A stretch of 64,000 nucleotides of DNA, taken from positions 1,116,001 through 1,180,000 of the forward strand of contig OZ037845.1 of the NCBI GenBank assembly GCA_964035575.1, in the 5' to 3' direction. The notes below the pieces were generated by a model that saw only the letters and a list, made by a program, of their open reading frames with translations, was not told the DNA's origin and made no database searches. A program made the translations under genes and the position numbers. This DNA is from Rhynchopus sp. YZ270_cl-10. Lineage: Eukaryota. Below are positions 1,990 to 62,891 of this stretch, piece by piece. Every line of letters begins with the position of its first letter. The first letter of the stretch is position 1.

Positions 1990-2774
1990 AATGGGTGAGG
2001 GTGGGTCATCGTTTAATCTTCACTAAATTTTAAGAGGATTTTTTTTTCTCTAATTTCATCATAACAACGATTGTGATCTAGGTGACTACGCGCAAAAGAG
2101 GCTTAGGTTCATCTTTTATAAACTTCTTTCCCCCCCCCCCCCTTTTCATTCAGTTCTGGTTCGTTCTTTTGCTACCTTTTTTTTTTCTACCGTTTCCGTA
2201 CCTTTCTGCCATTCTTCACTTTCTGTTCAGTGCCTGCGTCCGCCGATGTACGGTGAGGCGTTTTCACTTTTCAACTTTTTTTCTATTTGCCAGCTTTGTT
2301 GGCAACGTCCATTCCCCCTATTTTGCATCTTTCTTTTTTTCGTTTTTTTTTGGGGATAATGAACTCCCCCCTACCCATCCCTGCGAGGGAAATGGCAGAC
2401 CGATGTCTCTCCCGCCGGAAAGGTGAAGGAGGGAAAAAAAGTGTACACGAATATTGGTGTTTTCAACTAAGGGTAGAATTTTATCTCAGGACATGCCTCG
2501 TTGAGAGCGCCAAACACCCCCCCTCCCCCTTCCCCCTTTGATGGTCAGTCTAGTGGTTTGTACATATTTTCCTATTTTTATAAGATATGTGCGGACGAGA
2601 GAGGCATATTCATTCACATTTTTCTATTTTTTCTATTAAGGTGCCTCCTCAGGTTTGTCATCTTAAACCAGCTTTTTTTTTTTAAACACAACGTTGAGAC
2701 TGTCTTTCGTGTTAAGGAGGACAACTCCACTAGAGGAATGCACCCTACGGTATCTATTGGTCGTAGGGTATGCA

Positions 2775-2909
2775 TAATGGTGGCAGTATTCTGATGGGAA
2801 GCCCATTGGAATACGCAAAATACACCAAAATACATCACAATACATATTGTGATGTGTTTTGATGTATTTTGCGTATTCCAATGGACTCCCCATCAGAATA
2901 CTACCATTA
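2775..2909. repeat. ~135 bp near-perfect palindrome (foldback or mini-MITE)
   Basis: TAATGGT..AGTATTCTGATGGG..CCATTGGAATACGCAAAATACA..CATCACAATA is followed by its reverse complement. Confidence 0.75.
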
Positions 2910-5900
2910 GGTGTGCATCCCTCGGGGGGCTTGTATCGTACAGTGGGTTGCCTCAATAGCTACCCATGTCTTATTGATCTAATCCTTTTCCCCATCCATG
3001 TACACTATCCATGCTGAACGCACAATGCCATATTTGGACCCATATTTGTTAGCGGGTCTTGTCTCTACCAACAAAAGGGTGTTATGTCCCCGCAAAAGGC
3101 GCAAACACCGTTTCATATATTAGGGTGATTAAGCACTACAGACTTATCATCTTAACCTATTCTTTGTACGAAAGAGGCACATATTTTCAAGGTTTTTTTT
3201 TGGGGGGGGTAATCCCTCTACGTCCACAGTTTTGTTTCCTCGGGGGAGGCTTTGTGTGGTTTAGCATGCCACACTGGAGTATCGGGGGGCATATGTCTGT
3301 CTTTGTGTCTGTAATGGGGTTGAAGGTTTTTGGTAGCTTTGTCTTTGTCCCCCTCTCCCAATCACTCTCCCACTTCCCGTGTCTTCCCTCCCCCCGTGTC
3401 AACTCGTGGGCAATGTTCCCAGGAATTAATGTAATGCTTGATTTTTTGAAATTTTTTGAAAAAAAATTAACATACCTCTCTCCTACTACTCAACCCATTT
3501 CTTCTGCATTTCTACCTTTACGTTTTTTTTTTTTGTATTGAACGACTCTCAGATGCTGCATATTCCAGTATGTCTATTACAGTCCAAAGAAATTTGACAT
3601 TCAAATTTGGCGGGTATTTTGACGCCTTTTTTGGACGCCAAACACATTTGGACCTATTGTACGTTCCTGTTGTCTGTTTGCCCTTTGATGTGTACCTACC
3701 TGTCTATTCTAGATGACAACAATGAGCAAGGCTTAGGTAGGTTACTACCACCCTTAAACATGTGCAAGGTGGCGGGAGGCACATTGTCATCACGCTTTTT
3801 CTATTCTTCCCCTCCCGAAGAATATTAGATTCATATACTTTCAATTCTGTGAATTGAAAGTATATGAATCTAATATTCTTCCCCTCTTCTTTAGTACCTC
3901 ATTTGATGACATAGTCCAAAAACTATCTAAGGGTAAACCCTCTAAGTTGAAAAACCCAAAATCCACCTTAGTTTTTAACCCTGTGTGTTTTAGCCCTCTG
4001 ATGTTTCTACTACGTTATGTGTGTGTAAATGTGGTTAATTTTTACACAAAAAAAAAACTATTATTGTGTCATCCCTGTGGTCCATCATATCTTTCTAATG
4101 TTATTTGCTTGGAGTCAAATCACCTCCACTCAAATGACACAACCTTGTTTTCTTCCATGCGCAACACTCCGGGGGTTCGATAACCCGCGGAGTGTCAGTG
4201 CTTGCGTCCCAGAGGCGTTTGCACTATCAACTTCACTTTCTTTTTACTATAGACCCAACCCTCATCTTTCAGGTTCATTTTTTTGAACAGTTTTATGAAG
4301 TGAAATAAGAAGCAATTTTTCTCCTTCCAAAAGGTATTGTACAGGGAAAAATAAATGACAGTGTAAAGAAAGATGTTATTTGCCAGCGTTCAGCCATAAT
4401 CCATCTATTGTGGGTAGCATCACGGCACTGTCCGATCAGACAAACCGTAGATACCAGGGACTAATGGGAGTTCCTGGCAAAGCTCCATTGGAGAGTTGAG
4501 CATTTTTTGGGATGTGCACAGACATTGACCTGATTTTGGTGAAATTTGCCTGAAATTTGGTGAAAAAGGAGGAGTTTGGTGGGATGTAAACAAACTCCAC
4601 CAAAAATTCAAGCGAAAAAAAATCTGGCACATCCCTCAGAGGCACATACATCTTTCAAATTTACCCCCCTTTTTTTTTACCCTGCAATACGTTCTGAACG
4701 TTCCAAGGAAATACTCTACACAGTTGACCCATTTTTCCTATCTTCTAACGAGACCCTGTTACATGCATGTCTTCTGTGCAAGACGTGTCTGCAAATACAT
4801 TAGGTGTCCACATCTTAAACCATCCGCTATCCCTTCCTACTATTTACTCAAGGTGTGACCTGGGGGAGGGGAGGGGCTCAGGCAAATGTGTGTTTCAGTG
4901 AAGCATATGTATCTTAAGTTTTTCTATTTAGTTGTACACAGCTTTCGCCCTAAAAGAGTGAGGCTTGGGTTCATCTTACGAACCTCTTTTTTCTTTTTCG
5001 CTTTTTTCAAAAAAAGAAGTGGCGGGACATGTTCCTGTCTTTTACTTTACAAAAAAAAAGGGTATATTTTTTTTCTACGCGATCCCGACCTGGGGTTAAC
5101 GGTTCCTATTAGCAATCCTTGTTTTGTGTGCTGTTCGTCGGGTAGGGAAGGGGTCGCTATCGAGCAAATGCAAACGAGACTGGTGTGGCTGAAAGGGGGT
5201 GCTATTTTCTGCTATTTTGGGGTCGTCAGCCACACCAGAGACGTTATATATTTTTCTTTTTTTTTGGGGGGGGGCCTTTTTTGGAAAGGGTTTTGACGCG
5301 TCGTTCTATGGCAGTCTGTTCCCTTTGGGGGGTTTTTTTCTCCTGTTCTACGTCTTGCATTTGTTATGTTGTGTGCGGGTGGAGAAGTTTTGCAAGATGT
5401 ATGTGCAACTAAGTGCGTTCATCTTTCAGAATTTTTCTTTTTTTTGTTTTTGTTTTTGTTTCGGTTTGTGTTTATTTTTGCTTATTATTTGACACAGAGT
5501 CACAGAGCACCTAGTGGTCTTTGCATCTATATTGGAGGTTCCGGGGTATGGTCAGCTCCCCTATAGTTTGAGCTGTGCATCAAACTGGGACGCTATCCTT
5601 CTCCGTGAAACGTTCACCACACAAGTTCTCAACTATTATACGTGCAACGGTGTTGCACTCTACATATTGTTTATTTATTTTTCTTCTAGTACTGCCTGCG
5701 TCCGCCGGTGTCCGGTGAGGCGTTTTGCAGGGACAACTCTTTTTCTAGTTTTTTTTCTTATACATTCAAGGAGATGTGCACAAATTTGGCACAAATTCTT
5801 TTTTTCAGTTTTCGTTCTACATCAGCCTATTCTATCCTATCACGTTCCTTTCCGTTTCCTTCCTATGCTGCCATATTCCTATGCGTTCAGTGCTTGCATA

Positions 5901-6527
5901 TGGCACAGTCCATAAACCCACCCCCCTAAAAGGTAACCTTTTGAATTTTTTTTCACATTAGATAACTTCCACTCGGACTTTTTGCTCGATTTTTGCTCCT
6001 TTGAACTCAGAATAACGTTTCTGAGGTCACAGGAGCAAAAATCGAGCAAAAAGTCCGAGTGGAAGATAGATGGATTAACGTCGAGAGGTAAAAAAACTAA
6101 TTGGGAATTGGGTTTTGCGTTAGTTTCGTGGGTAAACCGTTTCCCAAAAAATATTTTTCATTATTTGTGACACTTCTGAGCATCTCCTGGTGGAAACCAC
6201 TTCCAGAATAGGCCTGGGGCACCCTGTGGGGTGAAATTTCACCAGTTGTCCACCCCAGAACTCGAAAAAATGCAAAAAAGTAGTGAAAAAGTAGCTTTTC
6301 GCAGCCCACTCAAAACCCAATGCCCAATTAGTTTTTTTACCTCTCGACGTTAATCCATCTATCTTCCACTCGGACTTTTTGCTCGATTTTTGCTCCTGTG
6401 ACCTCAGAAACGTTATTCTGAGTTCAAAGGAGCAAAAATCGAGCAAAAAGTCCGAGTGGAAGTTATCTAATGTGAAAAAAAATTCAAAAGGTTACCTTTT
6501 AGGGGGGTGGGTTTATGGACTGTGCCA
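5901..6527. mobile_element. MITE/foldback element with ~205 bp TIRs, each containing an internal hairpin
   Basis: TGGCACAGTCCATAAACCC...GGGTTTATGGACTGTGCCA flanked by TA (CATATG on both sides). The left arm (~5901-6105) is the reverse complement of the right arm (~6323-6527). Confidence 0.85.
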
Positions 6528-6650
6528 TATGCTTTGCATGTCTAGTACGCATTCTCATTACAAAATAAAGTATGATTGTTTTTTTGGTTACAACCCCACC
6601 ACACCTGACCCCATGTGCTTCTGCAGAGGAAAAAAAAAGCGTAACAAACA

Positions 6651-8304
6651 ATGATGATGCTTGCTGCCCTGTCTGTCGCGGCTCTTGCTGCTGATGCTGA
6701 GCACTTTATGCGTATGGAAGTTCCCCACTCAGTGAACCAGGGTCACAGTGATGCAACAGGGTTCAAAGTGCATGGCTTGGAGGCAAGGGACGCCGACACA
6801 CAGCAAAGCACGAACAGGAAGGCCGAGTGTTTCCAGCATCGTGGCAAAACTGTGTGTGCACAGACGGACACCAGCAACCCAACGTGCCCCATCCAGTTCA
6901 TCCGCGCCGCGCATATGAGTTGTGTCAGCACAGTGCATGAGCTCAACAGAAAGGGCGAGAAGAACACACAGAACACAACCATCACGTTGTTCTGGTGGAC
7001 CGACCCTACCTGCATGGTGCACAAGACGTTGTGCGAGATTGCGCACCCTGTGCACTCTGCGCAGTCGGAGGAAGAGTTGTACGACTTCTCCGGCGCCTGT
7101 GAGGAGAGCGCTCATGTGCAGTTCCACTACCACTACAACGTGGAGCAGGGGGACAGGGTCGTTGTCATGAACCGGGATGCGACGGCGAACTTCAAGCTTG
7201 GGGAGGAGCTGCTTATCTTTCAGCTGAAGAACAACAGCCAGCCTGTTTTTGAGCAGCACACCTCTGTTAGGCTCTATGAGCGTGACTCCGCTGGACGTGT
7301 CACGTACTCTACACCTAACCTGGACCAGAGCAGACTCGCACCACGCACCAACGACATGTCAGGCCTCTACGCGCAGATCGCCAGCAAATACGATATTTAC
7401 GTCCTCTTCGAAGGCGAGTTCGTCTCCGTCACCGACAGGTACACAGCCAACTTCCGTGTCACCAGCTACCCCGTCCTCCCGGCGTGCTCCGCTGAGCAGA
7501 GGGACACATGGCAGGACATCGTCGTGTACAAGGAGAAGGACGACGACAGCAAGGCCGGCGTTGTCATTGGTGTCATTGCAGGTACGTTCCCCCACCCCCA
7601 ACCAACTACAGTAAACCTCGAATACGCGGATAGGATCGCTTAGTCAAAAACACACATTGTGGGTTAGGCAAGGCTCCAATTTCCTTGTCTTCTAATATAA
7701 TTTGTATCTCATTTATAAACCCTTCCTTTCACACAGCGATTGTCGTGCTGGTGGCATGCGTGAGCTTCGGGATACACTACTGCATCTTCCAAAAGAAGCG
7801 CCATGTGGAGAAGACGAACGAGGCTGTTGAGTCGAACCGTGTTGATGTATGTCACCACCGCCACCCATTTCCTCACACCCCCCCTAACCCTTTTGGCTCT
7901 ACTTTGCATAAGCAGGGGTGTCACCACCACCACCACCCACCCCTATCACTGTATCATTTATCCCAATACATCCATTTTAATGTTATCTTCGAAGGGCAAC
8001 TTGACTACCCTGCCGGTAGGTTGGCCACCTCTCTTGCCCACATCACACCTTTCATCGTTATTTCATCAAATACCCCTCTTTTGACCAACAGGTGGGCCAA
8101 GCCCCGGTTGTTCTCGGAACTGCTGCAGGGGTTGCAAACCCATACGAGATGCCGCCTGGTGTTGTTGTGGAAGGTGTCCTGGTCCAGTCGGGTGTTCCTG
8201 TGCAGCCTGTTCAGGGTGCGCAGGTGATGACGGAGTGCACAGCGGCACCGCTGCCCCCACAGTCTTGCACTGTCTCTGCAGACTGCCAGGACACACAGCA
8301 GTAG
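6651..8304 (+). CDS. Type-I membrane protein, paralog 2; exons 6651-7581, 7737-7846, 8092-8304
   Basis: Signal peptide and the shared C..D..PTCPIQF.R.A...C/WW.D..C..H.T.C...HP/YDF...CEE/DM.GLY domain. Two GT-AG introns join the TM (GVVIGVIAAIVVLVACVSFGIHY) and the cytoplasmic tail in frame. Confidence 0.85.
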
Positions 8305-10726
8305 TGTGTGGTGGTCCTATTTTGACTATTTCTGTTGAAATGAATAGAAGGATCGTGGGGAGGTTTGTCGTATGGGGGCAAGCCAGACTTTTTGGTGTGT
8401 GATAATTGAGTTTACTTTCTCCTTTGCTTAGTGCGTTTATTTTGGATTTTTTTGTTGTTTTTTCCCTATATTCATCGCAAGTTTTGCCGCCCACAAAAGG
8501 GTGCAAAGTGTATTACACAGTGGTAGCTTTTAACATAGAACTGTTGAGGGTGTTAGAGTAATTGTAGTCAGTTTCCGCCGTCTCTTCTCTGCGAAGGTCA
8601 ATGTGTTGGTAACACAACTCGAAGTTCGAACCAACAATTCTTTGTCCCACAGTTCAAATAAACAAAACAAAAAAAGGTGGATATTGCACAATTGTGGCAA
8701 CATAACTGAGGCAACTACACTAATCCAACAATTTATCACAAAAAAAAACGGAAGAACGGAAAAATGATGTAAAGGCAGTTGCCATATCACATTGCCCCTC
8801 ATTCATATTGTAACGAACAAAATTGCAAATAAAAATATAAGTTGTCTTCAAAGTAGTTTCATTGGGTTGAGGAATGATCTGCATCTTCTTCCTTCGAAAT
8901 TTCATTTAGCGGATGACTGTACAGAACCCCGTCTTCGGACAAAAGGTGATTGTCGATACAAAAAAAAAAAGTGTTATAAAAACAATAGCTGTGTGCATTG
9001 TAGTGCAGTTTTCTTTTAGTTTCTAGTTTTTTTTCTTCTTTAAGGTTTGTGTTTCCAGTTGGGTTTCATCGACACCTTTTCTTTTACGCTGCTTTTTTTT
9101 AATGTGGTCAGCGGTCCACGGGAACCCCGTGAATCACAAAAAGAACCCTGGAGGGGGGACCTAGGTTGCTGCCCGCACCAATTATGAATTTAGTTTGAAA
9201 AGGGCACGATGTTTCGGCTTATCTTACCAACTCTTCTTTTCCCCCCCACCACATTTTTTTCCAGCCTTTTTATACACAGTGTTCATGAAGTATGGGACGG
9301 AGTTACAGTGATCCAAGAACATAGGGGTGGATATTTTTAGATGTGTGTGCACGAGAGGCACATTATCATCTTTTCAAAATTTCTTTTTTTGGGGGTTTTC
9401 ATAACCCTAACGAAAAAAGAACAGTTTATATTCCTCCCCCTGCCGAGGTTTCTTGTATTACATTCGCACCCTCTATGCCTTTTCGTTTAGAAAAGAATGT
9501 ATATGAAGTCATTGTATTACCTTCTCTCCTTTCCGGAGAGGCTCATCCGCACCTGGATAGGGTAGCTATTCCTCAGATTTTCCTTTTATACCATCGAAAA
9601 ACCAAAAGGAGAATTGACTCTGTTTTGGCAAAAAAAATAGCAACTCTCATTTTAAAAAAAAACTGGCGACTTTTATGTTGTCTATAACCAAACAAAAAAC
9701 AGTGGAGATTGCACAAACTGTGGCAACACAACCGAGGCAACTACACTACTCCAACAATTTATCAAAAAAAGAAAAACTTTATGCCATCGAACATGCTAAG
9801 CAACACTGATCATACTATATACTATGCTCCCCTTAACTCTCTGCTCTCTTTACCCACATCACAATGCTCAAAGCAAAATATGTGTGAAAAATTCGTTGGT
9901 CAACTGTACTATTTTTTAAACTACAGTACAAAAATACAATTGCGGGTCAGTGCACATTACCCCCGTATCAGGAAAAGTGCCAAGGCATATCTTGAGGCAG
10001 GTAGTCCATTTTTTTTCTGCCCATCATCCAAGAATGGGTGCGGTGCATGACAATGATTACACTAGAACCAACATATTATCAAAAAAGCAGAAGAAACAAT
10101 TGTGGCAAACCCATTTCTTCGGATTTGGGTGATGCATCAATTAAAAAAAACCCCCCCTTACTGTGGAACAAAGGTTTTCAAATAAAATAGTAAGTATCTC
10201 TTCCCCCCCACCTACGTTTTTGGTTTTTTTTTTTTTTTTTTTTTGTATGTGTGCATTACATCCGTTCCTTTTACCGTCATATATCCATTTTTTTCTTCAG
10301 AATTTTTGGGGGTAGTCCCCCTTTATACTGTAACCGGCGCGGCCTGGTTAAGTTTTGGTTTTGGTTTGAAGCAGCTGCGAGGCTTAGTGTCATCTTTCAA
10401 AACCTTTTTCCCCCCTTTTTTTTTTGTGCTTTCACCCGGATGGCTGGCATCGTACAGTGGGTCAGTCGGAGGTGTGCCTGCATCAACTACAGTTTTCTTT
10501 TCTTTTCAAACCCCGCATAGTGCTTTGTGGGCTCCCCCTCTCCCCCCCTTATAATATGAATGGGAGCAATATATGTGCTACATTCTCTCACATGCTCTTC
10601 TGTTCTCTTGAATTGAAAGTACAGTACTCCAAAAGCTAACTTAGCGTACAAATAAGTTTGGATATTTGGGGATTTTTTTGGGGGGTAATTTTGGCAACGT
10701 TTTTTTTTTTTTTGCCAAACATAGGG

Positions 10727-10843
10727 ACCACCCGATTTTTACCCCGCGTAAAGGCGTGTATAGGCGTGAAGAGGACCGGATAGGCATATGCGGACCGTCC
10801 GTACACGCCTTTCGCCTATACGCGGGGTAAAAAACCAGGTGGT
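10727..10843. mobile_element. ~117 bp mini inverted-repeat element
   Basis: ACCACC..TTTTTACCCCGCGTA ... TACGCGGGGTAAAAA..GGTGGT inverted termini. TSD not clear. Confidence 0.6.
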
Positions 10844-24304: not shown

Positions 24305-26033
24305 TATAGGGGATTCCTGCATTTGTTTTTCTTGTGGACAACAATTCTTGTGCGCAAGAAGTACGCAATATGGGGTCGTCAGGAGCACCAGTTATCTTTA
24401 AATTTTTTGTGCTTGTCATATCATGAGTAGTGTCGTCTGGCATGGGGAGATGGTGTCTGTGTCCCCAAAGGCGTACTATCGATATCACATTTTTTTCTTT
24501 TTTATGTGTCTGTGTGCAGCGAGAGAGGGCGCAATTCACTCAAAAAAAAAAAAAATTCTCTCTTTTTTTTTTACCCTACCCTCCCCTACCCTCCCCCATC
24601 TTTCCTGTTCTCTCCCTTTCCCTTTCCCCACACTCCAATCGCATACCGTTACCGCTAGGCAAGACCACACCCCTGAGGGTAAAGAAGAGAATTTAGAGAA
24701 CTGGAGTGTTCCCGTTCTCGTCCCTCCCCTCTCTTTTCGTATCCCCTCCGAACGCTGTGTGTATACACCTTTCCAAAATTAAACACAGTACTCAAAATAC
24801 GGCAGATTTTGGGGGTTTTTTGAAGTAAAATTGGCCCCTTTTTTGTTTTTTTTTTTTTCGATTCATGCTCTGTAAACCTCTACACGCTTTTACGGCAGGT
24901 AACCGGTTTGAGGTGATCCTCGACCTTTTTTTTTTTTGGATGCCGAACACATATTTGGAGTACTGTAAAATAATTGTTGGTGCATCTATAGAGGTGTTCT
25001 GCAGTTCCCCCTTTTTTGATTGTGATGAAGGTGGAGGAAAGCTTATGAGACGAACCTCAGCCTCCCGTGCTTTCTAGGTCTTAGCGTTTCAAGTCAAATT
25101 TTTTTTTTTTTGAACGGTGAGGCGTTTGTACTATCAACTTCTCTTTTTTTTAAATAAAAAGACGTATTGGTTTGGTGATCCATATTCCAAAATATTCACC
25201 TGCCTAGGTTCACATCCTGAGATGTGAACCACGGCACCAACCGGACAAATTCCGGATTTACTCTTAGTAGCACAGAACGAGAAGCACGCTACCTCAGCAG
25301 CGCAAAAGTGACGAGTGAATGTCATTTTTTTTTTTTTAATCTGAAAGATAGTGTTACCGAAATCCTGTCAGGGACCTGTCAATATAGGGGGTGTCATTTT
25401 GTAATTTCCACCTGATTTTTACTGGGTACTGGGTACTGGCAAAAGTGTTAAGGAATTGTAAAGCGGACCCCCCCCTTTGTGTCAGGGATCTGTCAATATC
25501 GGCACTTTCGGAACACCAAAGAATATATAAAAAAAAACATACACAGAGAGACTGGCGACTGTGCTGAAACTAACGTGGGCAGGTTTTTTTTTTTTGCATC
25601 TAAACGGCAGGCCCATTTCTACACCCCTTTTTTTTTCCCACCCATCCCTTAGTACCATCACCATCACCATTCGCCCCATCAAAAAAAAAGCATAGTTTTG
25701 TTTTTGCAAAAAATTAGACATTTTTGTTTTTTGCTTCTCCACTCTCACTTCGAACATTACTTTGGATAGCAGGGTAGAATTCCTTGTCGACATGCTGACC
25801 ACACCTTGCAAAGACAATAAACTAGCGTGACTGAATGGAGAGGTGCACAAAGTACACAAGAAGTGCGAATCACCCCCCCCCCCTTCAGCCACAATACACG
25901 CTTCTGTTCCTTCTACAACATGACGCCACTGTATCAAAACAAAGTTTACGAAGAAGTCATATCACTCCCATACCCTATTCACAATTCTCCTTCACCACAC
26001 CACCACCACAGATATCCTTTTGCAAACTTCAAG

Positions 26034-33251: not shown

Positions 33252-33612
33252 TAGGGGGGGGGGGGGGGGGGGATTGGCAGGGCGCCATTATACGTTCCAA
33301 AGTCTGTTTCCTTTTAACACAAAATAGAAAGTGGTCATTCCACCGCTTTTTTTATGTGAGTAACTGTTCCCCCCCCCCTTCCCACATTTTATGATTTTCA
33401 AAAAAACCTGGAGATAATCTAAAGCTTTTGTACGACTGCACTAAAAAATGCGATGACGTAGACCTGGCATTGTTAAGGTGACTAAGCGCGAGCTTAGGTT
33501 CATCTCATCAACTTTTGTTTTATTACCCCATTTAGTAGTAGGTGGAAATTTTCCTTTTTAGAGAATCAACGAAGTACTCCCTTTTCAGGTATCACATAGC
33601 ACACAACATATC

Positions 33613-36730: not shown

Positions 36731-37803
36731 TGCTCAGCTTACAAATGTTTTCTTGGCTGCACTTTTTCTTTGCAGGTGGGATCATATGCTAGTTTTTCAA
36801 GTTTTCACTTTTCTCTTTTCTCTACTTTAAAATATTCGCATTGTGTCGTTTTTACAACGTGTTCTCGTTTTTTTCGGGCTTTTATATTAGCAGTTGCTTT
36901 TTTGTGGATGTGACAAAGCGAGGCTGCCAGCACACATGAGATCCTTCTTCTCCTGTCTTGCGTCTTCCTCATTCGCAGTAACAACTTTGCAGCTGCTTTT
37001 TTTTTCACCTGACGATTTCCCTCTTTTTGAGGGCCACGTTGTTGTTTTGAAACGCACATTTTTCGGTTATGTCACTGTTTTCTATTTTCCATGTTCGCAT
37101 TGTTGTGTTCCCTTTGGAACACAATGGTGTTCATTGTTTTTCTTTTCCTTTTCCCTTTCCTCGCCCGCCCCCACGTGCAAACACACACGCACCGACAATG
37201 CGCACCAAGTTTGCCGTTGCTCTGTGTGTGTGTGATGTTCTGCACGACCTTCTCTCTGTCTTGAGGGGTTCTTTTTTTTGTGTGTACTCTCTCCTTTTCC
37301 CTTGTTTGCACTTTGCAAAAAGAGGGAAAGGCGGGCCTGAAATAAAAGTAAAACCTCACAACAGGTTTTCGTCAGGACCACATCCTCAGCAGAAGAAAAC
37401 AAAGTAAAACCAAAGCATGAAACAATAAAGCCCCTTCTCCCTCTGCCACATCTTTGTTACCTATGGACAGCTCCTCTCCCATCATTATACAACCACCCTC
37501 GTGGTAACCGTATGCATGTCAATGAAGTGCTCTCTGTGGTTTGATAACACGCAGAGAACCAGAGTTTGCGTCCCGCCGGTGTGCAGTGAGGCGTTTTCAC
37601 TTTAATATTCTCTCTTTTTTTACTGCCCAAGTTAGCGACTCAGGGTTTTTGCTCCATTATAGACTCTCCCACACTGCGAAACGGGCAGAAGACCCCAACC
37701 GGACCCACATTATACAGGCCTAATTACCCTGTGTTCGCAATGATCCCCCTTCATCTGGTTGATGAGTGGAAGCGGGAGTAGCACATATCAGATGTAAACC
37801 ACG

Positions 37804-37911
37804 AAATGGATGTAGGTAGGACTGCATGGTTGGGTGTCCACCCCCCCGGTACAGCCGGTCATTGTACCACGGTGCACTGTTCACGAGAGGGCTTTTGTAT
37901 TTCAAGTCAAC
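37804..37911 (+). repeat. Representative of dispersed family C ending ..CACGAGAGGGCTTTGTATTTCAAGTCAAC
   Basis: Long copies at 37804-37911 and 41590-41693. Short 3'-only copies near 13957, 25085 and 40669. Confidence 0.8.
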
Positions 37912-38084
37912 CTTTTTTTTCACACTCCTTCCACCCAACAGACCTAATTGATACACTACCCTGACAAGCGTCCCCCCCCACCCCCCCAACCCCCCCTAGT
38001 TGAAGTTCTCCTCTATCTGAATTTTTCTGGGGGGGTTTCGTTCTTCAGGAGGTTTTTTTCTTCTTCGGGGGACGCAAAAGAAGG

Positions 38085-43067: not shown

Positions 43068-44382
43068 TTTAGGAGGTTGTCGACACAAAAAAAAAAGTGT
43101 GTGTGGGTGGGTAGCTCCCAGATCTCAGAGGGGAGTATTACCTAGAAATGTCCCTCTTTTTTTTTCACCCCTAAGATATGTGCTTCGCAGAGAGGTATAG
43201 TAGTCTTACAAAAGCTTTTTTTTCCCTTCCACTTCCAATTTTTAAATAGTTTAGGGTGGTCAATATACTAGCCCCTTGGCAACACCCTTCTCCAAAAAAA
43301 AAAAATCCCCCTTTTTTTAGCTGACTAATCTCTAGAGGCTTAAGTTCATCTTGTATTTTTTTTGTGAAGGATGTGCAGGCGTTGTGGTGCATTGTCTCGC
43401 TCCAGAGAGAGCGTGTTGCAGCTATTCTTGTGCTGGCGGCAAATGTCTGCATGTTCTGCACGTTGATTACTACGTTATTGTTGTTGGTTTTATCTATAGT
43501 GGTGTTATTGTGTATTTTTGATGTTTTTTTTTTTGTGCCGGAATCCCAGCTATTTTTTGCAGAGTTGTGGTAAAAACAAATAGGAAAGTGGAGATTTGCA
43601 CAAAACTGTGGCAACATAAACCGAGGCAACTTCACTATTTCAACAATTTTTATCAAACATACCATCAGAAAATACACATCACCCCTCCATTATCCGCTTC
43701 TTCTCCACTACGATTTGCCATATTTTTTTTTTGGGTTCTTTTTTTGATCCACTGAACGCAAATTACCCAGAACAATTACCCCATTATTTTTCTGACTTCC
43801 TTTCGTACGGTGTTTTGAGTGTGTGAGACTGTAGCTCATCTCTCCTTTTTTCAAAAGGTAAACTGAGCACAGAGGAGCTCAGACTCATGCCAACTTTTTT
43901 TTAAAAAAAGCTGTGTTTTTAAAAATTGTGTGTGACGACATTCGTCGGTTTCTTTCTTTATCCCATGCCCTTTTATAATAAGTCTTTGTGCGGTGAATTG
44001 AAGGGTGTACTGCAGGAGGGCGAATTTTTTTTTCTCTCAGACATTTTTTCGATCCTAATCAATTGGATAGCGTGGCGTTAAAATTGGTAAACTGTCTTTT
44101 TTTTAAAGTGTGCGAATCAAAGCATATTAATTTCAAGTTTTTTCTCATATTTTTTTTTTCTCTTCTTTGCATCAACAAGTGGAAAGGGATCCCCATAAAT
44201 GTCCAGAATAAAGAGCCCTACATCATAGCCTTTTTCAAGAAGGGTATGTAGTTAAAAAAAGACCACATTATGCCAATACATTTTTTGTCATTAAAAAAAG
44301 GGCAAAAATACTATATTTTTTGTTTCTCGTCATACGCCAGGCGTTATAGATGACCCCTACCCTTTTTTTGTGTTTTTTTATT

Positions 44383-44422
44383 AGGTGACTAAGCACGAGA
44401 GGCTTAGGATCATCTTATACAC
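44383..44422 (+). repeat. Representative of dispersed hairpin family A (AGGTGACTAAGCACGAGAGGCTTAGGTTCATCTTAY..AC), roughly 20 or more degenerate copies by eye
   Basis: Copies seen near 2080, 3122, 4955, 10375, 10921, 11797, 12483, 14877, 15250, 21392, 33476, 40615, 43318, 44383, 46159, 46843, 47526, 56470. All are in the + orientation. Confidence 0.85.
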
Positions 44423-44709
44423 TTTTCTTTTTTTTTCACTCCTGGGGTTTCGATAATCCCCACGGAGTGTCGGTACTTCTGCGTCCCAGAGGCGTTTTTG
44501 CACTATCAGGATTTTTTTTTTTTGAAGCGACAGTGCAAATCTTTCCTTACTGTCTCTTCCGTTTCCACATTGGTTGTGTTCCCTCAATAGCATGTTCACA
44601 TTCTTACTAAGGTCGATCCATAACATCCCTTTTTTTCTCTGAAAGAACATCCTTACTTTTGCTAAATCAACATCACCCCCCCACCGCTATTCTGCTGGGT
44701 TATACAGCT

Positions 44710-44958: not shown

Positions 44959-46427
44959 TCTAATAAAGTGCTCAAAAATGCAAAAAAAATCAAAAAAAAA
45001 ATCAAAAAAAAAAAAAAAGCAATGATGAGCTCAGGGAATGGTCCATTGTATGTGTCCTTTTTGCTCATTAGAAAGTCTATAGTTCAGGTCTCAATGTATG
45101 TGTCTGCAGGATAGTAACCTCTGCAAAACACTTCTTTTTCAAATCGTTACAAACGCCTTTTTTTAAAACATCGGTCATCGTCGTTCCGAAATGTAATAAA
45201 AAAATAAACGAATTTCCGTAAAATGTTTTCCAAGACTTTCAAAACCCCAGAAAAAAAAAAGGTGATTTTCACCCTAGTTATGTTGCTCTGTTTAGTCCGT
45301 GCGAGTTCTTTGAAAACTCAGTTTCTGTGAGTTTTATTTGCCTTATTTCTTTTTGTTCCCTATTGTCATGCCTGAGACCCTTTGACAAATATGTTAAGAA
45401 TGGTGTGTTGTGTTATTTTCCGCAGAAACTAGAGTCTTTTGTGTCTACAAGTGAAAGCTATTTGTGGATTGCAAAAGGTAAGCCAAAAAAAACCTTCTCC
45501 CCTAAAGGGGAAAAGAACCCATACTGCACTTTGACGTTTTCTTTTTTTTTTTATAGAAAAGAAATGTGGTTGCTGCAGCTAAAGACGGAATAGCTTATCT
45601 AATCCTATCCTTCTGCGAGAGTTTTTTTGTTTATTTGCTTTTTTTGTGCTCCAATATTTTAGGATTTTTCGAAAGAACAAAATCACATCGGGTGAATTTC
45701 ATCTCGCTTTTTTTGGAGGTTCTGTTCACATTGAATGTCGAACACAAAATCCTTTAGCTGTGTGTGCACAAGAAGGCACTGTCATATTCTTCAAATTTTA
45801 TTAGGAAATTCTTACCCTTTTTGCCCTGCGTTTTAGTGTGAGGAAACGCTTCACACTGGGGGAGGGCTATAGAATACACTGTGACTAATCGGGAGACCCT
45901 TGGTACTTTCGTTTCATTTTAACGATGCATAACAGCCACCCTTTTTAAAGATATTTTTTTTTGCATGCTGCGTGAGGGATATCACCTTTGCGCGCATTCT
46001 TTTTGCTTGCCATAAACCTTAACCAAACGATGTTTACATTATACAGTCATTTTTTCCCTTTTTTTTTTTTCAATACCAGAATAGGTGAAGGAAACCGCAC
46101 TTCACCTTAAATTCCACTTTTTTTTTTTATTGTGTTTTTTTTTTAAATACTTTTTTGGGGTTACTAAGCACAGAGGCTTAGATTCATCTTACCAAAAACC
46201 CTTCTCTCTTTTTTTTCTTTTTTCTTTCTCCACAGTCCACCCCCCTTCGTGGAGAATATTCCTTTTTTTCATGAGTCCACAGAGACCTTTGCATTTCCAA
46301 CTCTCTTTCCCCCCCTTTTTTGATGCCATATTTTATCGATGTATTTTTGTTTCCCCACAATGTTGAGTTGTGCACTACAGGGTAACGTTAGAAGTTGGGT
46401 TCAGGTAGGGTGTGAGGGGGGGGGGTA

Positions 46428-51336: not shown

Positions 51337-51397
51337 CACAACCTGTGCACATTCACACATCACATCACATCACGATGCAACACACAACTGCAGCTTC

Positions 51398-58205: not shown

Positions 58206-58299
58206 GGAAGTGATGAAAACCACTGATATGCCGCCCCAGTCGGAGCTCCACGAGCGATGCCCGAATAGGCTTTACAATACCTTAGGACACCTCTGATCT
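58206..58299 (+). ncRNA. Box C/D snoRNA 5, duplicate copy
   Basis: Essentially identical to 51398-51491. Confidence 0.88.
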
Positions 58300-58430
58300 C
58301 TCTTCTGCCTCGAAACACATCAAGTCTCCTGTTTCTTGGGTTGAGAGGCAACACCACTCCTCTCCTCTCCCAGACAACCCTCCACACAGATTCTCAACAA
58401 CACACCACAACACCACCCTCACCACACAAA

Positions 58431-59688: not shown

Positions 59689-59717
59689 CTTCTGTTCCCC
59701 ACCTTTCCACCCTCCTC

Positions 59718-59807
59718 TGTTGTGCATGATGAAATCCTGGAACCGCCCTAGCCAAGCCGAAGCAACGCTGTGGATACATTCCAACCTCACCTGACTGCTG
59801 ACACAAC
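59718..59807 (+). ncRNA. Box C/D snoRNA 1, duplicate copy
   Basis: Identical core to 50826-50916. Confidence 0.8.
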
Positions 59808-59836
59808 GCAAACCACACTCCACACTTTCCTTCTCT

Positions 59837-59932: not shown

Positions 59933-59978
59933 CACATTTCAGGTTCTCTTCTTTCGGGAGCACACTTCCGTCTCCAAA

Positions 59979-60238
59979 CAGCAACATGATGCACAAAACA
60001 CAACCATTCGGCCAGAGGTGGCCAACAAAGTCACGGCACCCTCGGTGGGGCTCGAAAAATTATGTCAAACTCAACAGGTCTGATTGTTGCTGCTCTCCTC
60101 TTTTGAACACAACCACTTCACATGACACCACACACAGCGAGCATGATGACAAAACTTCTTGGCAGCACCGCAAGCTGCTCCCAATACACCTCTCAGGAGG
60201 ATATGAGGGTTGGTCTTTCTTTCGCCCCTAGCTGACTC
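59979..60238 (+). ncRNA. Duplicate copies of box C/D snoRNAs 3 and 4
   Basis: Near-identical to 51077-51336 (offset 8902 bp). Confidence 0.85.
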
Positions 60239-60354
60239 CACAACCTGTGCACATTCACACATCACACCACATCACATCACACCATATTCTGCGCAAGGAT
60301 TACCCTCACTAAGCATCACCACACTCCGACACCACCACATGCCACCAGGTATCA

Positions 60355-62484
60355 ATGCTGTCGCTATTAGAGAACATCATCTCTGCGCGGGGCAGTCTTG
60401 AAGGGGTGGGGCGACAGCGGAATAAGGACGTTCTATGTGTTGCGCTGTGGGCTTTAGTGGTGGGTCTTTGTGTGCTGCTTCCTTGGTTTGTCGGCGACAG
60501 CTTCGCCCTAGGCCACCTCGGGGCCGTATTCATTCTCCTCTGTGGCACCGCAATCCTCACGCTAAGCTGCTGCGGCCGCGTAACCTCTGTCTTTTACATC
60601 AAAGCCTTCATTATTATTATCTTCACCTCCGTACTGCTCGTTGATATGTCGTACCGTGCTGTAGGAGGTGTCGCATGGCCATTATGTCTGGTGATCATCG
60701 ACCTCTCAGCAGGGTTGAACCTAGGTGAAACACTTCCCCTCCGTCTGACCTATGTGGGGACAGTGTGGTTGGTGGTGCAGCTTTTTGAAAGGGTGTTTCG
60801 CTTTGGTCTGTATGAGGTTCCGTTGCTGCCTTCGCAGGAGACACGATATGACGCTGCAATGGCAAAGCTGCAGTGCAAATCACTTCCGTGCGAGGACTCT
60901 GCAGAATGGGCTGTTGGAGTGGAGCTTGCTGCACTGTCAGTTTTTGTGTTGCATTTTTCTTCGATTCGCGCGCTCGCAAACCAGGCGAGGACAGAACGAT
61001 TGCTGCATGAAGAGTCGATGAAAGCGTTGCGCAAGGTAGCCAACATGCTAGCAGAATACGAGATTGACACTGCCCTGCATGCGCTAGACGGAATCGAGCT
61101 GAAGCATGAAATGAAGCTGGAATTTCTCCGATTGGAGCAGAATCTACGTCTGTACAGACCGTACCTTCCACATTGGATTCTCAACAAAGAGGGCACCCCT
61201 GGTGGTGGGGAGATGGACCGGAAGTTTAGTATGAACGTCGCACCACCTGGGGTGGTTGCGCGCGAGGCGACCATTGTGTTTACCGATGTCCGCAAATCGA
61301 CTGCCCTCTGGGAGCAGATCCCCGACGCCATGGAGCGTGCGATCGACATACACAACGAGGCCCTGCGCTACGTGGCCAGCTCCTACAACGGGTATGAGGT
61401 GAAGACGATCGGGGACGCTTTTATGGTGGCCTTTGAGACGCCAAGCGCAGGGATCAACTTTGCTTTGAGTTGCCATGAGGAGTTGCTTGAGTCGGAGTGG
61501 CCGGCTGGTATGCAGGAGGTTGTCATGTGCAGACGCGACGGTGAGATATGGGGCGGATTGACAGTCAGAATCGGTCTGAACCATGGTCCCGTAACCTTAG
61601 AGGAAAACGTGCTGACCGGCAGAACGGACTACCACGGACGTACCGTCAACATCGCTGCGCGTCTTGAAGGAAAGTGCAGCCCAGGGGCTGTAGCACTCCC
61701 CACAGAGCTGTGGGACCAAGAAGAGCCTGTGTGCCTCCTATCCAGGTCGTCTCCCCCCGTTGCCACCATCCTCAACGGTGTGTCCGAGCCCATCATGATT
61801 ACTCTAATATGGCCTATAGCCTTAGCAAAGCGGCAGGGGCGTCCGCTCAAGGATGTTGTCGCTTCGCACGCCTTTGGGCTCTCCTTGCATAACCCGAACA
61901 CAGAGCTTCGCAGCACCCACGCGACTGTCGGCATTCTGCAGTTCTGCGTGCAAAAGGAGGTGACCCAGGCTGGCGCGTCGTTGAATGCAGGGCTGGAGTC
62001 TGTAGCTGCGTTTCTCTCTGCGAGTGGAGGGACGTTGGTTACTGTGTTGGGGTTTCGTGCGTGCGTGGGGTGGAATATTACGAGACAGAGTGGCTCGCAT
62101 GCGGAGTGTTCTTTGTGGTTTATGCAACGTTTGCGGGTTGCGAAGAAGTGCATTGTGGAGGCGGCGGGGTTGTCCACTGGAGAGCTGTGGGTAGGGGATA
62201 TGGGCACGCAGACGAACAGGTTCATGACCGTCGCTGGCGACCCAGTGGACCACAGCTGGGAGCTCTGCAGCACCGCCCTCACCACGCACTGCGGCTGTCT
62301 TTACAGACCCCCGCCCTGCTCTGACCTCCCCTCCTCCCTCGCTGCCCTCCTCCGCCCAGCACCCCTAGTCAATAACCCCCAAGAGCAAAGCTGCGACCCA
62401 GTCTACGAACTAATCGATGAAGTCTCCCCACCAGCCTCCCCATATCACTCCGAGGGGGAAGAGAAGGGTGACGAGATCCGGTGA
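60355..62484 (+). CDS. Membrane-anchored class III adenylate/guanylate cyclase
   Basis: Several N-terminal TM segments, YRPYLP linker, and TIVFTDVRKSTALWE, GYEVKTIGDAFMVAF, VRIGLNHG, DYHGRTVNIAARLE motifs. A degenerate second cyclase-like region lies C-terminally. Confidence 0.92.
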   Translation: MLSLLENIISARGSLEGVGRQRNKDVLCVALWALVVGLCVLLPWFVGDSFALGHLGAVFILLCGTAILTLSCCGRVTSVFYIKAFIIIIFTSVLLVDMSYRAVGGVAWPLCLVIIDLSAGLNLGETLPLRLTYVGTVWLVVQLFERVFRFGLYEVPLLPSQETRYDAAMAKLQCKSLPCEDSAEWAVGVELAALSVFVLHFSSIRALANQARTERLLHEESMKALRKVANMLAEYEIDTALHALDGIELKHEMKLEFLRLEQNLRLYRPYLPHWILNKEGTPGGGEMDRKFSMNVAPPGVVAREATIVFTDVRKSTALWEQIPDAMERAIDIHNEALRYVASSYNGYEVKTIGDAFMVAFETPSAGINFALSCHEELLESEWPAGMQEVVMCRRDGEIWGGLTVRIGLNHGPVTLEENVLTGRTDYHGRTVNIAARLEGKCSPGAVALPTELWDQEEPVCLLSRSSPPVATILNGVSEPIMITLIWPIALAKRQGRPLKDVVASHAFGLSLHNPNTELRSTHATVGILQFCVQKEVTQAGASLNAGLESVAAFLSASGGTLVTVLGFRACVGWNITRQSGSHAECSLWFMQRLRVAKKCIVEAAGLSTGELWVGDMGTQTNRFMTVAGDPVDHSWELCSTALTTHCGCLYRPPPCSDLPSSLAALLRPAPLVNNPQEQSCDPVYELIDEVSPPASPYHSEGEEKGDEIR

Positions 62485-62891
62485 TTTTCGGGAAAAAAAT
62501 GTTTGTTTTTAGTGTGCGGAGATCAGCGCTTTGTTTCTCATCTCATGTTTTATTATTGTGGGCCAGGGGGTGGTGCCTGCATCAACGATTTCCTTTTTTT
62601 CCCCTTTGCTTTGTCAAGCAAGGAAGGTGCGTGATGCTGGTCAGATTTACAAAAAATGGCGTCTCCCCCCTTTTTTTTTTGAATTGTTTGGGAATCACAT
62701 ACTCACCACTTTCATACAATTTACAGGACTTTACACAACCTTGGTAACACCTTGGGCACATCTTTTTCGCGGTTTTCCCTTGTATTTGACAAGAAATTTG
62801 TTGCAGGCAATCACAAGAGTTTTGAGTCTCCTTGGTGGAGGCGAGGGTTGGTACCTGTGTTTACACGTTCACAACGCGGAGACACAACAGG

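What the first reader, a model, noticed from the sequence alone, without database searches (positions are those of the whole stretch)
2080..62586. Orientation-locked library of short structured elements from several families, most sharing a 3' (T/C)CAAC-type end: candidate Fanzor/TnpB omegaRNA-end relics or a cis-RNA code
Seen: dozens of 35-110 bp elements fill the intergenic DNA and at least one intron. They fall into at least five sequence families (A, H, B, C, G). Every copy I found is on the + strand, the same direction as all genes, and I saw none inverted. Each is a hairpin followed by a short tail that ends CAAC in the best copies (B: TTTCAAC/TATCAAC; C: TTCAAGTCAAC; G: GCATCAAC; A: TATCAAC/TACCAAC/TAAAC; H ends CAAG), usually followed by a T tract. 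They lack TIRs, obvious TSDs and a 3' poly(A). Established: IS200/IS605 right ends are a subterminal hairpin plus TCAA, and that end forms the 3' scaffold of the TnpB omegaRNA, with flanking DNA as guide. Fanzors are the eukaryotic homologs. Trypanosomatid SIDERs are degenerate elements co-oriented with polycistronic units that act as mRNA regulators. Inference: these are either right-end relics of multiple RNA-guided nuclease or HUH-type transposon families, or a domesticated RNA-level signal set. No nuclease ORF is present in this window.
Basis: partly seen in the sequence, partly recalled or inferred. Interest (0 to 1): 0.88.

Follow-up and report, generated by a model that had tools for sequence, protein, structure and literature searches.

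The report
Sense-locked hairpin repeats in a diplonemid
The non-coding DNA of this protist, a likely diplonemid, is peppered with short repeats that differ in sequence, share one predicted RNA hairpin shape and almost all point the same way as the genes; they are likely tiny RNA-copied mobile elements, not relics of RNA-guided nuclease transposons.

Summary
The elements are real. Profile searches give 53 copies at 10 bits or more: 52 on the gene strand, 1 inverted, 0 in coding exons. The host is likely a diplonemid.

Stems change on both sides between families. Within families there is no covariation beyond shuffles, and stems mutate about as fast as loops. The fold is RNA-like and sense-specific (34 of 34 copies). 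Summed contig depth runs roughly 900-6,000 times single-copy.

The omegaRNA/IS605 idea fails its tests: 0 of 24 copies carry the guide that a TCAA end needs, family sequence continues past CAAC, and no nuclease or transposase was found.

Best reading (0.55): non-autonomous retroposed RNA mini-elements, like stringent LINE 3' tails, kept sense by polycistronic transcription as SIDERs are. No parent, empty site or RNA evidence was obtained.

The parts
2080..2127 (+). family A copy, 54 nt after gene-1 stop
   Evidence: 37.0 bits
2228..2284 (+). family B copy
   Evidence: 58.9 bits
2584..2633 (+). family H copy
   Evidence: 26.8 bits
2923..2962 (+). partial family G copy
   Evidence: 10.0 bits
3158..3198 (+). 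degenerate H copy
   Evidence: 10.7 bits
4165..4236 (+). B2 long form: extra 5' hairpin (loop TTCGATAA) plus core
   Evidence: 42.4 bits for core; RNA fold z -6.0
4626..4676 (+). 5'-degenerate H copy
   Evidence: 16.0 bits
4950..4996 (+). A copy, 3' half
   Evidence: 22.2 bits
5690..5759 (+). family B copy
   Evidence: 48.2 bits
   Evidence: 73.6 bits; fold
9196..9237 (+). degenerate A copy
   Evidence: 12.6 bits
9338..9385 (+). family H copy
   Evidence: 33.9 bits
9697..9768 (+). family D copy
   Evidence: 76.9 bits
10369..10408 (+). A copy, followed by G (A-then-G pair)
   Evidence: 17.2 bits
10437..10492 (+). family G copy
   Evidence: 58.9 bits
10922..10967 (+). degenerate A copy
   Evidence: 11.0 bits
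11798..11844 (+). family A copy
   Evidence: 35.7 bits
12122..12162 (+). B2 copy, followed by H
   Evidence: 41.7 bits
12175..12219 (+). family H copy
   Evidence: 40.8 bits
12430..12474 (+). H copy, followed by A
   Evidence: 33.7 bits
12483..12529 (+). A copy, 81 nt before gene-3 ATG
   Evidence: 34.6 bits
13951..13991 (+). C copy inside a GT-AG intron (13891-14098)
   Evidence: 15.3 bits
14877..14922 (+). family A copy
   Evidence: 41.2 bits
15247..15290 (+). family A copy
   Evidence: 31.2 bits
15994..16046 (+). family B copy
   Evidence: 54.5 bits
19909..19961 (+). family H copy
   Evidence: 32.6 bits
20368..20416 (+). divergent A copy
   Evidence: 12.1 bits
21389..21425 (+). A copy, 3' half
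   Evidence: 28.9 bits
22020..22070 (+). family B copy
   Evidence: 40.7 bits
23828..23880 (+). family B copy
   Evidence: 56.9 bits
25035..25076 (-). the one inverted copy (family A, lacks the 5' foot)
   Evidence: 19.9 bits, E 3e-5 as a non-seed hit; only '-' family hit in blastn
25110..25144 (+). B copy, 3' half
   Evidence: 19.6 bits
31249..31283 (+). weak B-like hit at the edge of a foldback element; doubtful member
   Evidence: 10.8 bits; its inverted twin scores 6.3
33476..33518 (+). A copy with GCGA tetraloop, 95 nt before GrpE ATG
   Evidence: 37.0 bits
37560..37613 (+). B copy; an extra 5' hairpin starts near 37530
   Evidence: 44.9 bits; fold
37798..37914 (+). C long form (about 115 nt); multi-copy DNA continues upstream
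   Evidence: 49.5 bits for core; blastn to 41586; depth
40615..40660 (+). A copy, followed by C
   Evidence: 41.8 bits
40668..40712 (+). C short form
   Evidence: 46.4 bits
41372..41421 (+). degenerate B copy
   Evidence: 13.5 bits
41586..41696 (+). C long form
   Evidence: 48.8 bits for core
43175..43222 (+). family H copy
   Evidence: 26.6 bits
43319..43363 (+). family A copy
   Evidence: 16.9 bits
43583..43659 (+). family D copy
   Evidence: 69.0 bits
43857..43901 (+). divergent A-like copy picked by eye; not among the 53
   Evidence: folds alike; a training member of model R1, so its score is not independent
44383..44428 (+). reference A copy; sharp 5' boundary in other genomic copies
   Evidence: 47.5 bits; 200 and 161 contigs diverge just before 44383
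44437..44514 (+). B2 long form right after the A copy's T-run
   Evidence: 33.8 bits for core
45756..45802 (+). degenerate H copy
   Evidence: 12.3 bits
46158..46202 (+). family A copy
   Evidence: 36.6 bits
46843..46886 (+). A copy, followed by G (second A-then-G pair)
   Evidence: 20.8 bits
46897..46950 (+). family G copy
   Evidence: 54.3 bits
47530..47560 (+). partial A copy
   Evidence: 10.8 bits
47676..47720 (+). family H copy
   Evidence: 38.7 bits
56469..56513 (+). family A copy
   Evidence: 31.5 bits
62546..62592 (+). G copy, 3' half, 62 nt after adenylate-cyclase stop
   Evidence: 13.8 bits
20802..20949 (+). three E stubs (A-like 5' foot, short palindrome, A-run); others at 8943, 43070, 47368; relation to the class unproven
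   Evidence: 17-22 bits each; no stable fold

Best explanation
These are one class of short dispersed repeats, sharing a predicted sense-strand RNA hairpin, that are likely non-autonomous elements copied through RNA by a reverse transcriptase of a non-LTR retrotransposon. SHOWN: one fold across six sequence families; 52 of 53 copies on the gene strand; none in coding exons; a pyrimidine/T tail; very high copy depth; neutral-looking decay of single copies. INFERRED: (1) the copies ride in polycistronic pre-mRNA; (2) the hairpin acts as a stringent LINE-type 3'-tail signal, with swappable stems and a kept loop end, so the fold is selected at the copying step; (3) the RNA is cut or copied from the foot of the stem, which gives the sharp 5' end, and long forms keep extra upstream hairpins; (4) the U-rich tail primes insertion at T-rich sites, which builds head-to-tail chains; (5) orientation is locked by transcription-linked insertion, by loss of antisense copies that would pair with thousands of sense copies in a cell with RNAi, or by both.
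For: One fold across families. Between A, H, B2, C, D and G, 43 of 73 inner-stem and 13 of 61 outer-stem comparisons change on both sides, with 0 unpaired; I set the register by hand on one copy per family. Within families there is no covariation beyond shuffles (B 230/500, A 59/500, H 349/500). Stem rate is 0.20 against loop 0.22; single changes keep a pair in 44 of 138 cases (32-46 expected by chance) and double changes in 8 of 17. The plus strand folds better as RNA in 34 of 34 copies (-10.8 against -5.9 kcal/mol) and is weak as DNA (-3.9). Summed contig depth is about 900-6,000 times single-copy at A, C and D positions in two runs; this is a rough ratio, not a copy count. The A 5' end is sharp and T-runs follow the 3' end in other genomic copies; the 15 joints shown (of 583) include C-to-A, A-to-A and A-to-B2 links, all on one strand. 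In stringent LINE tails the stem can be swapped while the loop is read specifically (PMC4176376). D. papillatum has unidirectional gene arrays, about 2,500 retroelement ORFs, 52% repeats and RNAi genes (PMC10161547). Sense bias is known for SIDERs (about 4:1) and L1Tc (about 10:1).
Against: No autonomous parent or RT was seen: none in the window, and no genome was available. There is no empty site and no provable TSD. There is no poly(A) or tandem-repeat tail on the sense strand, and A has a fixed rather than ragged 5' end, both unlike typical LINE debris. D and E sit in A-rich flanks, which does not fit the T-priming step. The lock (52:1) is stronger than in SIDER or L1Tc. Pair retention is mildly above chance if the transition share of unpaired sites is used (44 against 32, p 0.013), and A shows 4 pairs with double changes against 1.6 expected (32/500). 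Alignments are small (13-17 rows) and include truncated copies. Close pairs within the window are not significant (9 against 5.5, p 0.08). No excess CpG decay was seen.
Confidence: 0.55

Rival explanations
1. Domesticated cis-RNA code: each copy is kept because a protein reads the fold in pre-mRNA or long 3' UTRs, for decay, processing or elongation through long spacers.
For: Near-perfect sense lock and an RNA-type fold kept across families. Diplonema 3' UTRs are long, median about 800 nt, and SIDERs were co-opted this way (abstracts). There is a slight excess of pair-keeping changes under one null.
Against: No within-family covariation, and stems mutate like loops. 7 of 16 spacers have no copy, and distances to starts (81-892 nt) and stops (54-1,793 nt) are scattered. 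The likely splice acceptors here are C/CA-rich, not the elements' T-runs (same pattern in Diplonemidae).
Confidence: 0.17
2. Minimal single-stranded-DNA elements moved by a HUH enzyme (Helitron-like or REP-like), inserting into the strand displaced by transcription.
For: Hairpin plus short tail, T-rich flanks, a sharp 5' end and chains of copies. Helitron ORFs exist in D. papillatum. 24 of 34 copies begin with AG at the foot.
Against: The hairpins are weak under DNA energies and hold 1-3 G.T pairs each in five of five correctly registered family representatives. The IS608 guide rule fails in 24 of 24 copies. There is no 5' TC or 3' CTRR (Helitron ends recalled). No HUH ORF was found.
Confidence: 0.1
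3. Right-end (omegaRNA scaffold) relics of TnpB/Fanzor transposons, with the flank as guide.
For: TCAA in 25 of 53 tails; long structured forms of about 115 nt exist; multi-copy DNA upstream of C-long thins out leftwards (about 1,000, then 470, then 150 times single-copy in run X1), which leaves room for an unseen parent.
Against: 0 of 24 guides and the wrong spacing. Family sequence and a T-run follow CAAC, so the would-be guide is not a free flank. Most copies are 35-60 nt, against scaffolds of about 120-150 nt. No TnpB/Fanzor motif or Pfam hit in the window. No match in Rfam, viral contigs or plasmids. No IS605/TnpB/OrfB/IS607 term in the 7 readable Diplonema supplements.
Confidence: 0.04
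4. Introner-like or non-canonical introns that are spliced out, and so tolerated only in sense.
For: Hemistasiid diplonemids have short non-canonical introns with paired ends (PMC12621601). Some copies read AG|GT at the foot.
Against: 0 of 53 copies interrupt CDS, although CDS is 33% of the window (p 5e-10). The window's introns are canonical GT-AG. Only 3 of 34 copies have GTA near the 5' end, and the next AG lies 9-147 nt away.
Confidence: 0.05
5. Ordinary poly(A)-tailed SINEs lying antisense, with the flanking T-runs being their A tails and A-rich target duplications.
For: T-runs precede many copies (12 of 31 have at least 9 T in 15 nt; loose-end consensus).
Against: The minus strand folds worse in 34 of 34 copies. 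The T-run is more constant on the other side (24 of 31). No tRNA or Rfam head was found.
Confidence: 0.04

Closest known systems
SIDER1/SIDER2 of Leishmania and L1Tc/NARTc of Trypanosoma cruzi (ingi-clade retroposons; PMC2689281 and PMC5814959, passages)
   Same: Euglenozoan host with unidirectional gene arrays; many degenerate non-coding copies between genes; excess of sense copies; almost none in CDS.
   Different: SIDERs are defined by the 79-nt ingi signature and are much longer (about 550 nt, recalled); sense excess is about 4:1, with antisense copies enriched in spacers. Here the units are 35-115 nt, six sequence families share one hairpin, the bias is 52:1, and the tail is pyrimidine/T rather than poly(A).
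3'-tail stem-loops of stringent LINEs and partner SINEs (ZfL2-1, ZfL2-2, UnaL2; PMC4176376 abstract and Results part 1)
   Same: Upper and lower stem near the 3' end; the stem can be exchanged while the loop carries identity; a short tail follows.
   Different: No partner LINE is shown, no tandem-repeat tail, no tRNA-derived head, a fixed 5' end at the stem foot, and a strand lock that L2-type elements are not known for (recalled).
IS200/IS605 right ends (IS608; PMC3201880 passages) and TnpB/Fanzor reRNA (10.1101/2023.08.09.552727 and PMC10530073, passages)
   Same: Imperfect hairpin near the end; TCAA in about half of the tails.
   Different: No guide tetranucleotide at the foot, pyrimidines rather than AG after the foot, spacing 5-8 rather than 10 nt, weak DNA fold, no free flank after TCAA, no enzyme, and a far shorter scaffold.
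Unclassified dispersed repeats of Diplonema papillatum (PMC10161547, section 8)
   Same: Short dispersed motifs at up to about 6,000 copies and scattered 28S rRNA pieces in a diplonemid.
   Different: The text I read gives no shared fold or strand lock for them. The repeat section of Additional file 1 could not be read and may bear on novelty.

Membership tests
IS200/IS605 right end (HUH) | 4-nt guide 5' of the hairpin foot that pairs with TCAA (G with C-3, A with T-4) | tested here: not met
   0 of 24 intact copies have GA.T at the foot (rule; the last guide base is recalled)
IS200/IS605 right end (HUH) | Purines (AG) directly 3' of the foot and TCAA ending 10 nt from it | tested here: not met
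   First two bases are mostly TT or TA; AG in 1 of 24, where the foot was set one base off; TCAA in 11 of 24, ending at 5-8 nt
IS200/IS605 right end (HUH) | Element ends at TCAA, with unrelated flank beyond | tested here: not met
   TTCTC(T)n follows in 4 B copies and (C)TTCAC(T)n in 2 B2 copies, of 11 printed
IS200/IS605 right end (HUH) | Cognate TnpA (Y1) in the genome | not testable with these tools
   No genome held; none in the window
TnpB/Fanzor omegaRNA locus | RuvC nuclease ORF ending at or upstream of the scaffold | tested here: not met
   Window only: 15 long ORFs and 144 of 540 non-coding frames scanned against Pfam; six-frame scan with recalled motifs gave 0. The rest of the genome is untested.
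TnpB/Fanzor omegaRNA locus | Scaffold of about 120-150 nt plus 17-20 nt variable guide as a small RNA | not testable with these tools
   No raw RNA reads were available; most copies are 35-60 nt; sizes
Stringent LINE 3' tail / SINE | Two-part stem-loop at the 3' end, folding on the transcribed strand | tested here: met
   (predicted folds)
Stringent LINE 3' tail / SINE | Same tail on an RT-encoding partner element | not testable with these tools
   No genome; no pattern match in public collections
Stringent LINE 3' tail / SINE | Target-site duplication and 3' poly(A) or short tandem repeat | tested here: inconclusive
   Flanking repeats are mostly T- or A-runs; the tail is 87% pyrimidine
Stringent LINE 3' tail / SINE | tRNA/5S/7SL-derived Pol III head (SINE) | tested here: not met
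   0 tRNA; no Rfam hit on any element. B2-long has only a T-loop-like hairpin.
SIDER | Sense excess within directional gene clusters, outside CDS | tested here: met
   52 of 53 sense, 0 of 53 in CDS
SIDER | 79-nt ingi signature and descent from an ingi-clade element | not tested
SIDER | Effect on mRNA stability or translation from the 3' UTR | not testable with these tools
   Needs reporter assays
Introner / non-canonical intron | Copies interrupt coding sequence and are spliced out | tested here: not met
   0 of 53 in CDS; splicing itself was not testable
Helitron (canonical) | 5' TC, 3' CTRR after a hairpin (recalled) | tested here: not met
   24 of 34 start with AG, 1 with TC; tails are CAAC-like
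MITE | TIRs, TSD and both orientations (recalled) | tested here: not met
   Asymmetric hairpin plus tail; 52:1 orientation

The most novel reading that the evidence does not exclude
A new class of minimal mobile RNAs. A 35-45 nt hairpin with a U-rich tail is cut out of polycistronic pre-mRNA and written back only into the sense strand of transcribed DNA. Several sequence families are read by one enzyme that sees the fold. At over one copy per kb of long spacers they also mark nascent RNA genome-wide, as a structural code for processing or decay.
Probability: 0.15. Interest if true: 0.85.

Novelty: new variant of a known kind. Interest (0 to 1): 0.5.

Why it matters
Diplonemids regulate genes mostly after transcription and have unusually long 3' UTRs of unknown content (PMC10161547). 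A fold-defined, sense-locked repeat class at about 1.6-1.9 copies per kb of the long spacers is a concrete candidate for what fills those UTRs. It offers a direct test of how retroposons become strand-locked and co-opted in polycistronic genomes, a question raised by SIDERs. If a partner RT reads only this hairpin and inserts in the sense strand, it would be among the smallest retroposition substrates. I found no description in the searches run (Rfam). The Diplonema repeat supplement could not be read and most subscription papers are not searched. The result also closes a false lead: hairpin plus TCAA is not enough to call an omegaRNA end.

Tried and rejected
No whole genome is held, so genome-wide orientation and parent searches could not be run.

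No RNA holder was listed among 9 runs; this is no evidence on expression. Only contigs could be laid, on 33400-44700, so starts, ends, strand and splicing were not seen. Depth ratios are rough, and the leftward fall in depth upstream of C-long may reflect neighbouring repeat families rather than 5' truncation.

Pattern scans: viral contigs gave 2 and 24 short matches with no element context, and model R1 found 0 in 21 of those 26 loci. Gapped A and C patterns gave 0 in viral contigs and 0 in metagenome contigs; a B pattern gave 0 in prokaryote genomes. blastn of C-long against plasmids gave 2 chance hits.

Earlier findings: nothing relevant in 6 look-ups.

A family-free descriptor gave 12 plus-strand hits against 3.2 +/- 2.1 shuffled and 7 minus-strand hits against 5.7 +/- 2.5; recall was low, and 2 of the 12 lie in a foldback. 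A MAFFT alignment across families was not structural and was not used. In one search one pair was mis-set (corrected). In one search family G was mis-registered (corrected).

Branch-point plus polypyrimidine acceptor idea: rejected, because real acceptors are C/CA-rich and distances are scattered. The loop's likeness to the sarcin-ricin loop and to other small RNAs is recalled only; Rfam gave no hit on the elements and one paper search gave 0. CpG decay was not seen.

The orphan gene at 16863-18116 has no Pfam or significant PDB match, one other homolog and no nuclease motif.

Full report
SETTING. The window is intron-bearing eukaryotic DNA with all recognisable genes on the + strand: GrpE, a kinase, tRNA isopentenyltransferase, two GSTs, a receptor-type cyclase, a PAP-like nucleotidyltransferase and several orphans. 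The best named GrpE homolog is Diplonema papillatum at 55%, with trypanosomatids at 36-41%. Introns are GT-AG with C/CA-rich 3' tracts, as reported for Diplonemidae (PMC12621601, parts 1-3 of 8 read). The host is therefore likely a diplonemid other than D. papillatum. In D. papillatum, genes lie in unidirectional arrays of up to 120, 3' UTRs have a median of about 800 nt, repeats make up 52% of the assembly, about 2,500 ORFs are retroelement-like, and RNAi genes are present (PMC10161547: passages, section 8; Additional file 1 unreadable). No whole genome was held.

OBSERVATION. A both-strand blastn of the window against itself showed the families and one inverted hit. Profiles from 40 seeds (34 without family E) were run on both strands. 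The non-redundant catalogue has 73 hits at 7.5 bits or more and 59 at 10 bits or more; six controls gave at most 2 and 1. Without E there are 53 copies at 10 bits or more (A 20, H 10, B 9, B2 3, C 4, G 4, D 3), 52 on + and one inverted A at 25035-25076. T-runs outnumber A-runs only 250 to 137 in non-coding DNA, which cannot give 52:1 (p 3e-9). None of 53 lies in CDS and one lies in an intron. Density is 1.6-1.9 per kb in two long regions and 0.3-0.4 per kb in two others. CAAC is in 19 of 53 tails and TCAA in 25. Other dispersed repeats in the window are also mostly direct (14 against 2 pairs), but 9 of those 14 belong to one set of local duplications.

ONE FOLD. RNAfold gives all families the same plan: an outer stem of 3-7 bp that usually opens with AG and contains G-U-G or A-U-G against C-A-Y, a small internal loop, an inner stem of 4-6 bp, a loop ending in GA or GAG before a G, then a 5-8 nt tail and a pyrimidine tract. 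B, D and G carry an extra helix in the loop; B2-long and C-long add hairpins upstream. With one representative per family, registered by hand, 43 of 73 inner-stem and 13 of 61 outer-stem comparisons differ on both sides and none is unpaired. A covariance model of A alone also picks up five H copies at E below 1. The + strand folds better than the - strand as RNA in 34 of 34 full-length copies (mean -10.8 against -5.9 kcal/mol; z -2.1 against -0.8); under DNA energies the hairpins are weak (-3.9). The boundaries were chosen on the + fold, which favours that strand. Dinucleotide-shuffle z-scores are -3.0 (A), -2.9 (B), -6.0 (B2-long), -1.8 (D) and -0.7 (C-long). No Rfam family or tRNA matches an element.

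SELECTION ON SINGLE COPIES. Within families, pair counts do not exceed the shuffle control: covariation score reached by 230 of 500 shuffles in B/B2, 59 in A and 349 in H. A is borderline on double changes (4 against 1.6; 32 of 500). Over the three alignments, stems differ from consensus at 0.20 of sites, loops at 0.22 and tails at 0.36. Single changes keep a pair in 44 of 138 cases, against 32 (p 0.013) or 46 (p 0.64) expected under two transition shares; double changes keep it in 8 of 17. I read this as decay of copies from a few structured masters, with the caveat of 13-17 rows per alignment.

GENOME-WIDE HINTS. Contigs of four coded runs were laid on 33400-44700. Single-copy contigs have depth of about 108 (X1) and 125 (X4); summed depth at C, A and D positions is about 900-6,000 times that. 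The tool warns that this is no copy number, so only the order of magnitude is taken. 200 (X1) and 161 (X4) contigs diverge exactly before 44383, the foot of A, with a T-run consensus, and 133 and 93 go on as T-runs after the 3' end. The 15 joints shown of 583 include C-to-A, A-to-A and A-to-B2 links on one strand, which suggests head-to-tail chains elsewhere; inside the window close pairs are not significant (9 against 5.5, p 0.08). Low-depth runs X6 and X7 also hold the elements. No RNA evidence was obtained.

TESTING THE OMEGA/HUH IDEA. At the IS608 right end, TCAA lies 10 nt 3' of the hairpin foot and is read by a 4-nt guide 5' of the foot (C-3 with G-35, T-4 with A-34), stabilised by the A and G just 3' of the foot; changing those to pyrimidines weakens the complex (PMC3201880, passages). 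Here 0 of 24 intact copies have a GA.T guide, the bases after the foot are mostly TT or TA, and TCAA occurs in 11 of 24 at 5-8 nt. B and B2 continue with family-specific TTCTC or TTCAC and a T-run, so no free flank could serve as a guide. Reported reRNAs are about 120-150 nt, and Fanzors sit in IS607, TIR/TSD or Helitron-type elements (passages). Pfam found no TnpB, transposase or RT in 15 long ORFs or in 144 of 540 non-coding frames; a six-frame scan with recalled motifs found no TnpB motif and one stray RT-like pentapeptide. Public collections gave no related locus. A search for Fanzor with diplonemid gave 0 papers. A parent elsewhere in the genome is not excluded.

TESTING OTHER IDEAS. Introner: excluded from CDS at p 5e-10, no 5' splice consensus. 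Splice-acceptor module: the nearest copy lies 81-892 nt before a start in 9 of 17 genes; 7 had none in the upstream stretch and one lay beyond an approximate boundary check, so I count only those listed; 7 of 16 spacers have none (some gene ends are off by 1-3 nt). Antisense poly(A) SINE: the fold and the steadier T-run are on the wrong side.

MECHANISM. The pattern of a fold conserved between families, not within them, and readable as sense RNA, fits selection at a copying step that goes through RNA. Stringent LINE tails are the closest worked-out case: an upper and lower stem that can be swapped and a loop read by the RT protein (PMC4176376, abstract and Results part 1). Sense excess in polycistronic arrays is known for SIDERs (about 4-fold; PMC2689281 passages) and L1Tc (an order of magnitude; PMC5814959 passages). 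I infer that copies ride in pre-mRNA, are released or copied from the stem foot, prime at T-rich sites through a U-rich tail, and stay sense through transcription-linked targeting or removal of antisense copies. Every step of that chain is inferred. Against it stand the missing parent, the unprovable TSDs, the fixed 5' end, the A-flanked D family and a lock stronger than in the known cases.

VERDICT. It works like a non-autonomous retroposon tail with SIDER-like strand bias, but it is not shown to be a member of either family, and it fails the IS200/IS605 end test. I found no description of it in the paper searches listed or in earlier scan notes. Novelty: new variant of a known kind. Interest 0.5.

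Noticed in passing
window about 44.7-46.7 kb: Three fragments of eukaryotic LSU rRNA, one on + and two on -. Unlike the hairpin class they are not strand-locked. D. papillatum also has about 3,600 scattered 28S pieces.
   Followed up: no
window 40864-41319: Element with 19-bp perfect terminal inverted repeats and the highest summed depth seen, over 1 million at 41169: a very abundant MITE-like repeat.
   Followed up: no
window 5896-6532 and 31256-32379: Large nested foldback elements with arms of 225 nt (99%) and 376 nt (97%).
   Followed up: no
window 50822-50929 and 59714-59821: Duplicated 108-nt unit with C/D-box-like ends and a weak snoU83B match, below gathering score: candidate box C/D snoRNA.
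   Followed up: no
window 51056-51515, 52430-52568, 58132-58323, 59958-60323: Near-identical CA-rich blocks shared upstream of unrelated genes (97-99% in the long pairs): likely shuffled 5'-acceptor regions.
   Followed up: no
window 5181-5235 against 16603-16792: The second copy holds about 130 extra bases between two TGCTATT repeats: a filled and an empty version of an insertion with a 7-nt direct repeat.
   Followed up: no
window 29940-30109 and 42697-42869: A 170-nt repeat present in opposite orientations (82%); one copy lies in what looks like an intron of an LSm-like gene.
   Followed up: no
window 10369-10492 and 46843-46950: Two A-then-G pairs share the same linker, which suggests a co-copied dimer.
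   Followed up: partly
window 37690-37797: Multi-copy DNA directly upstream of C-long, with depth falling leftwards: a longer parent or a separate family. Best place to start a parent search.
   Followed up: partly
window 666-14262: Three tandem paralogous orphan membrane-protein genes with no Pfam match.
   Followed up: no
window 52738-55340 and 35209-36685: Cys-rich repeat proteins: pacifastin-like, 312-nt units, and a 264-nt triple repeat that is multi-copy in the genome.
   Followed up: no
window 16863-18116: Orphan 417-aa ORF with a single 35% homolog, listed with the same longest-contig length; no nuclease motif.
   Followed up: partly
window 14605-14641 and 14739-14773: Two further hairpins that fit the family-free descriptor but no profile: possible extra families.
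   Followed up: no
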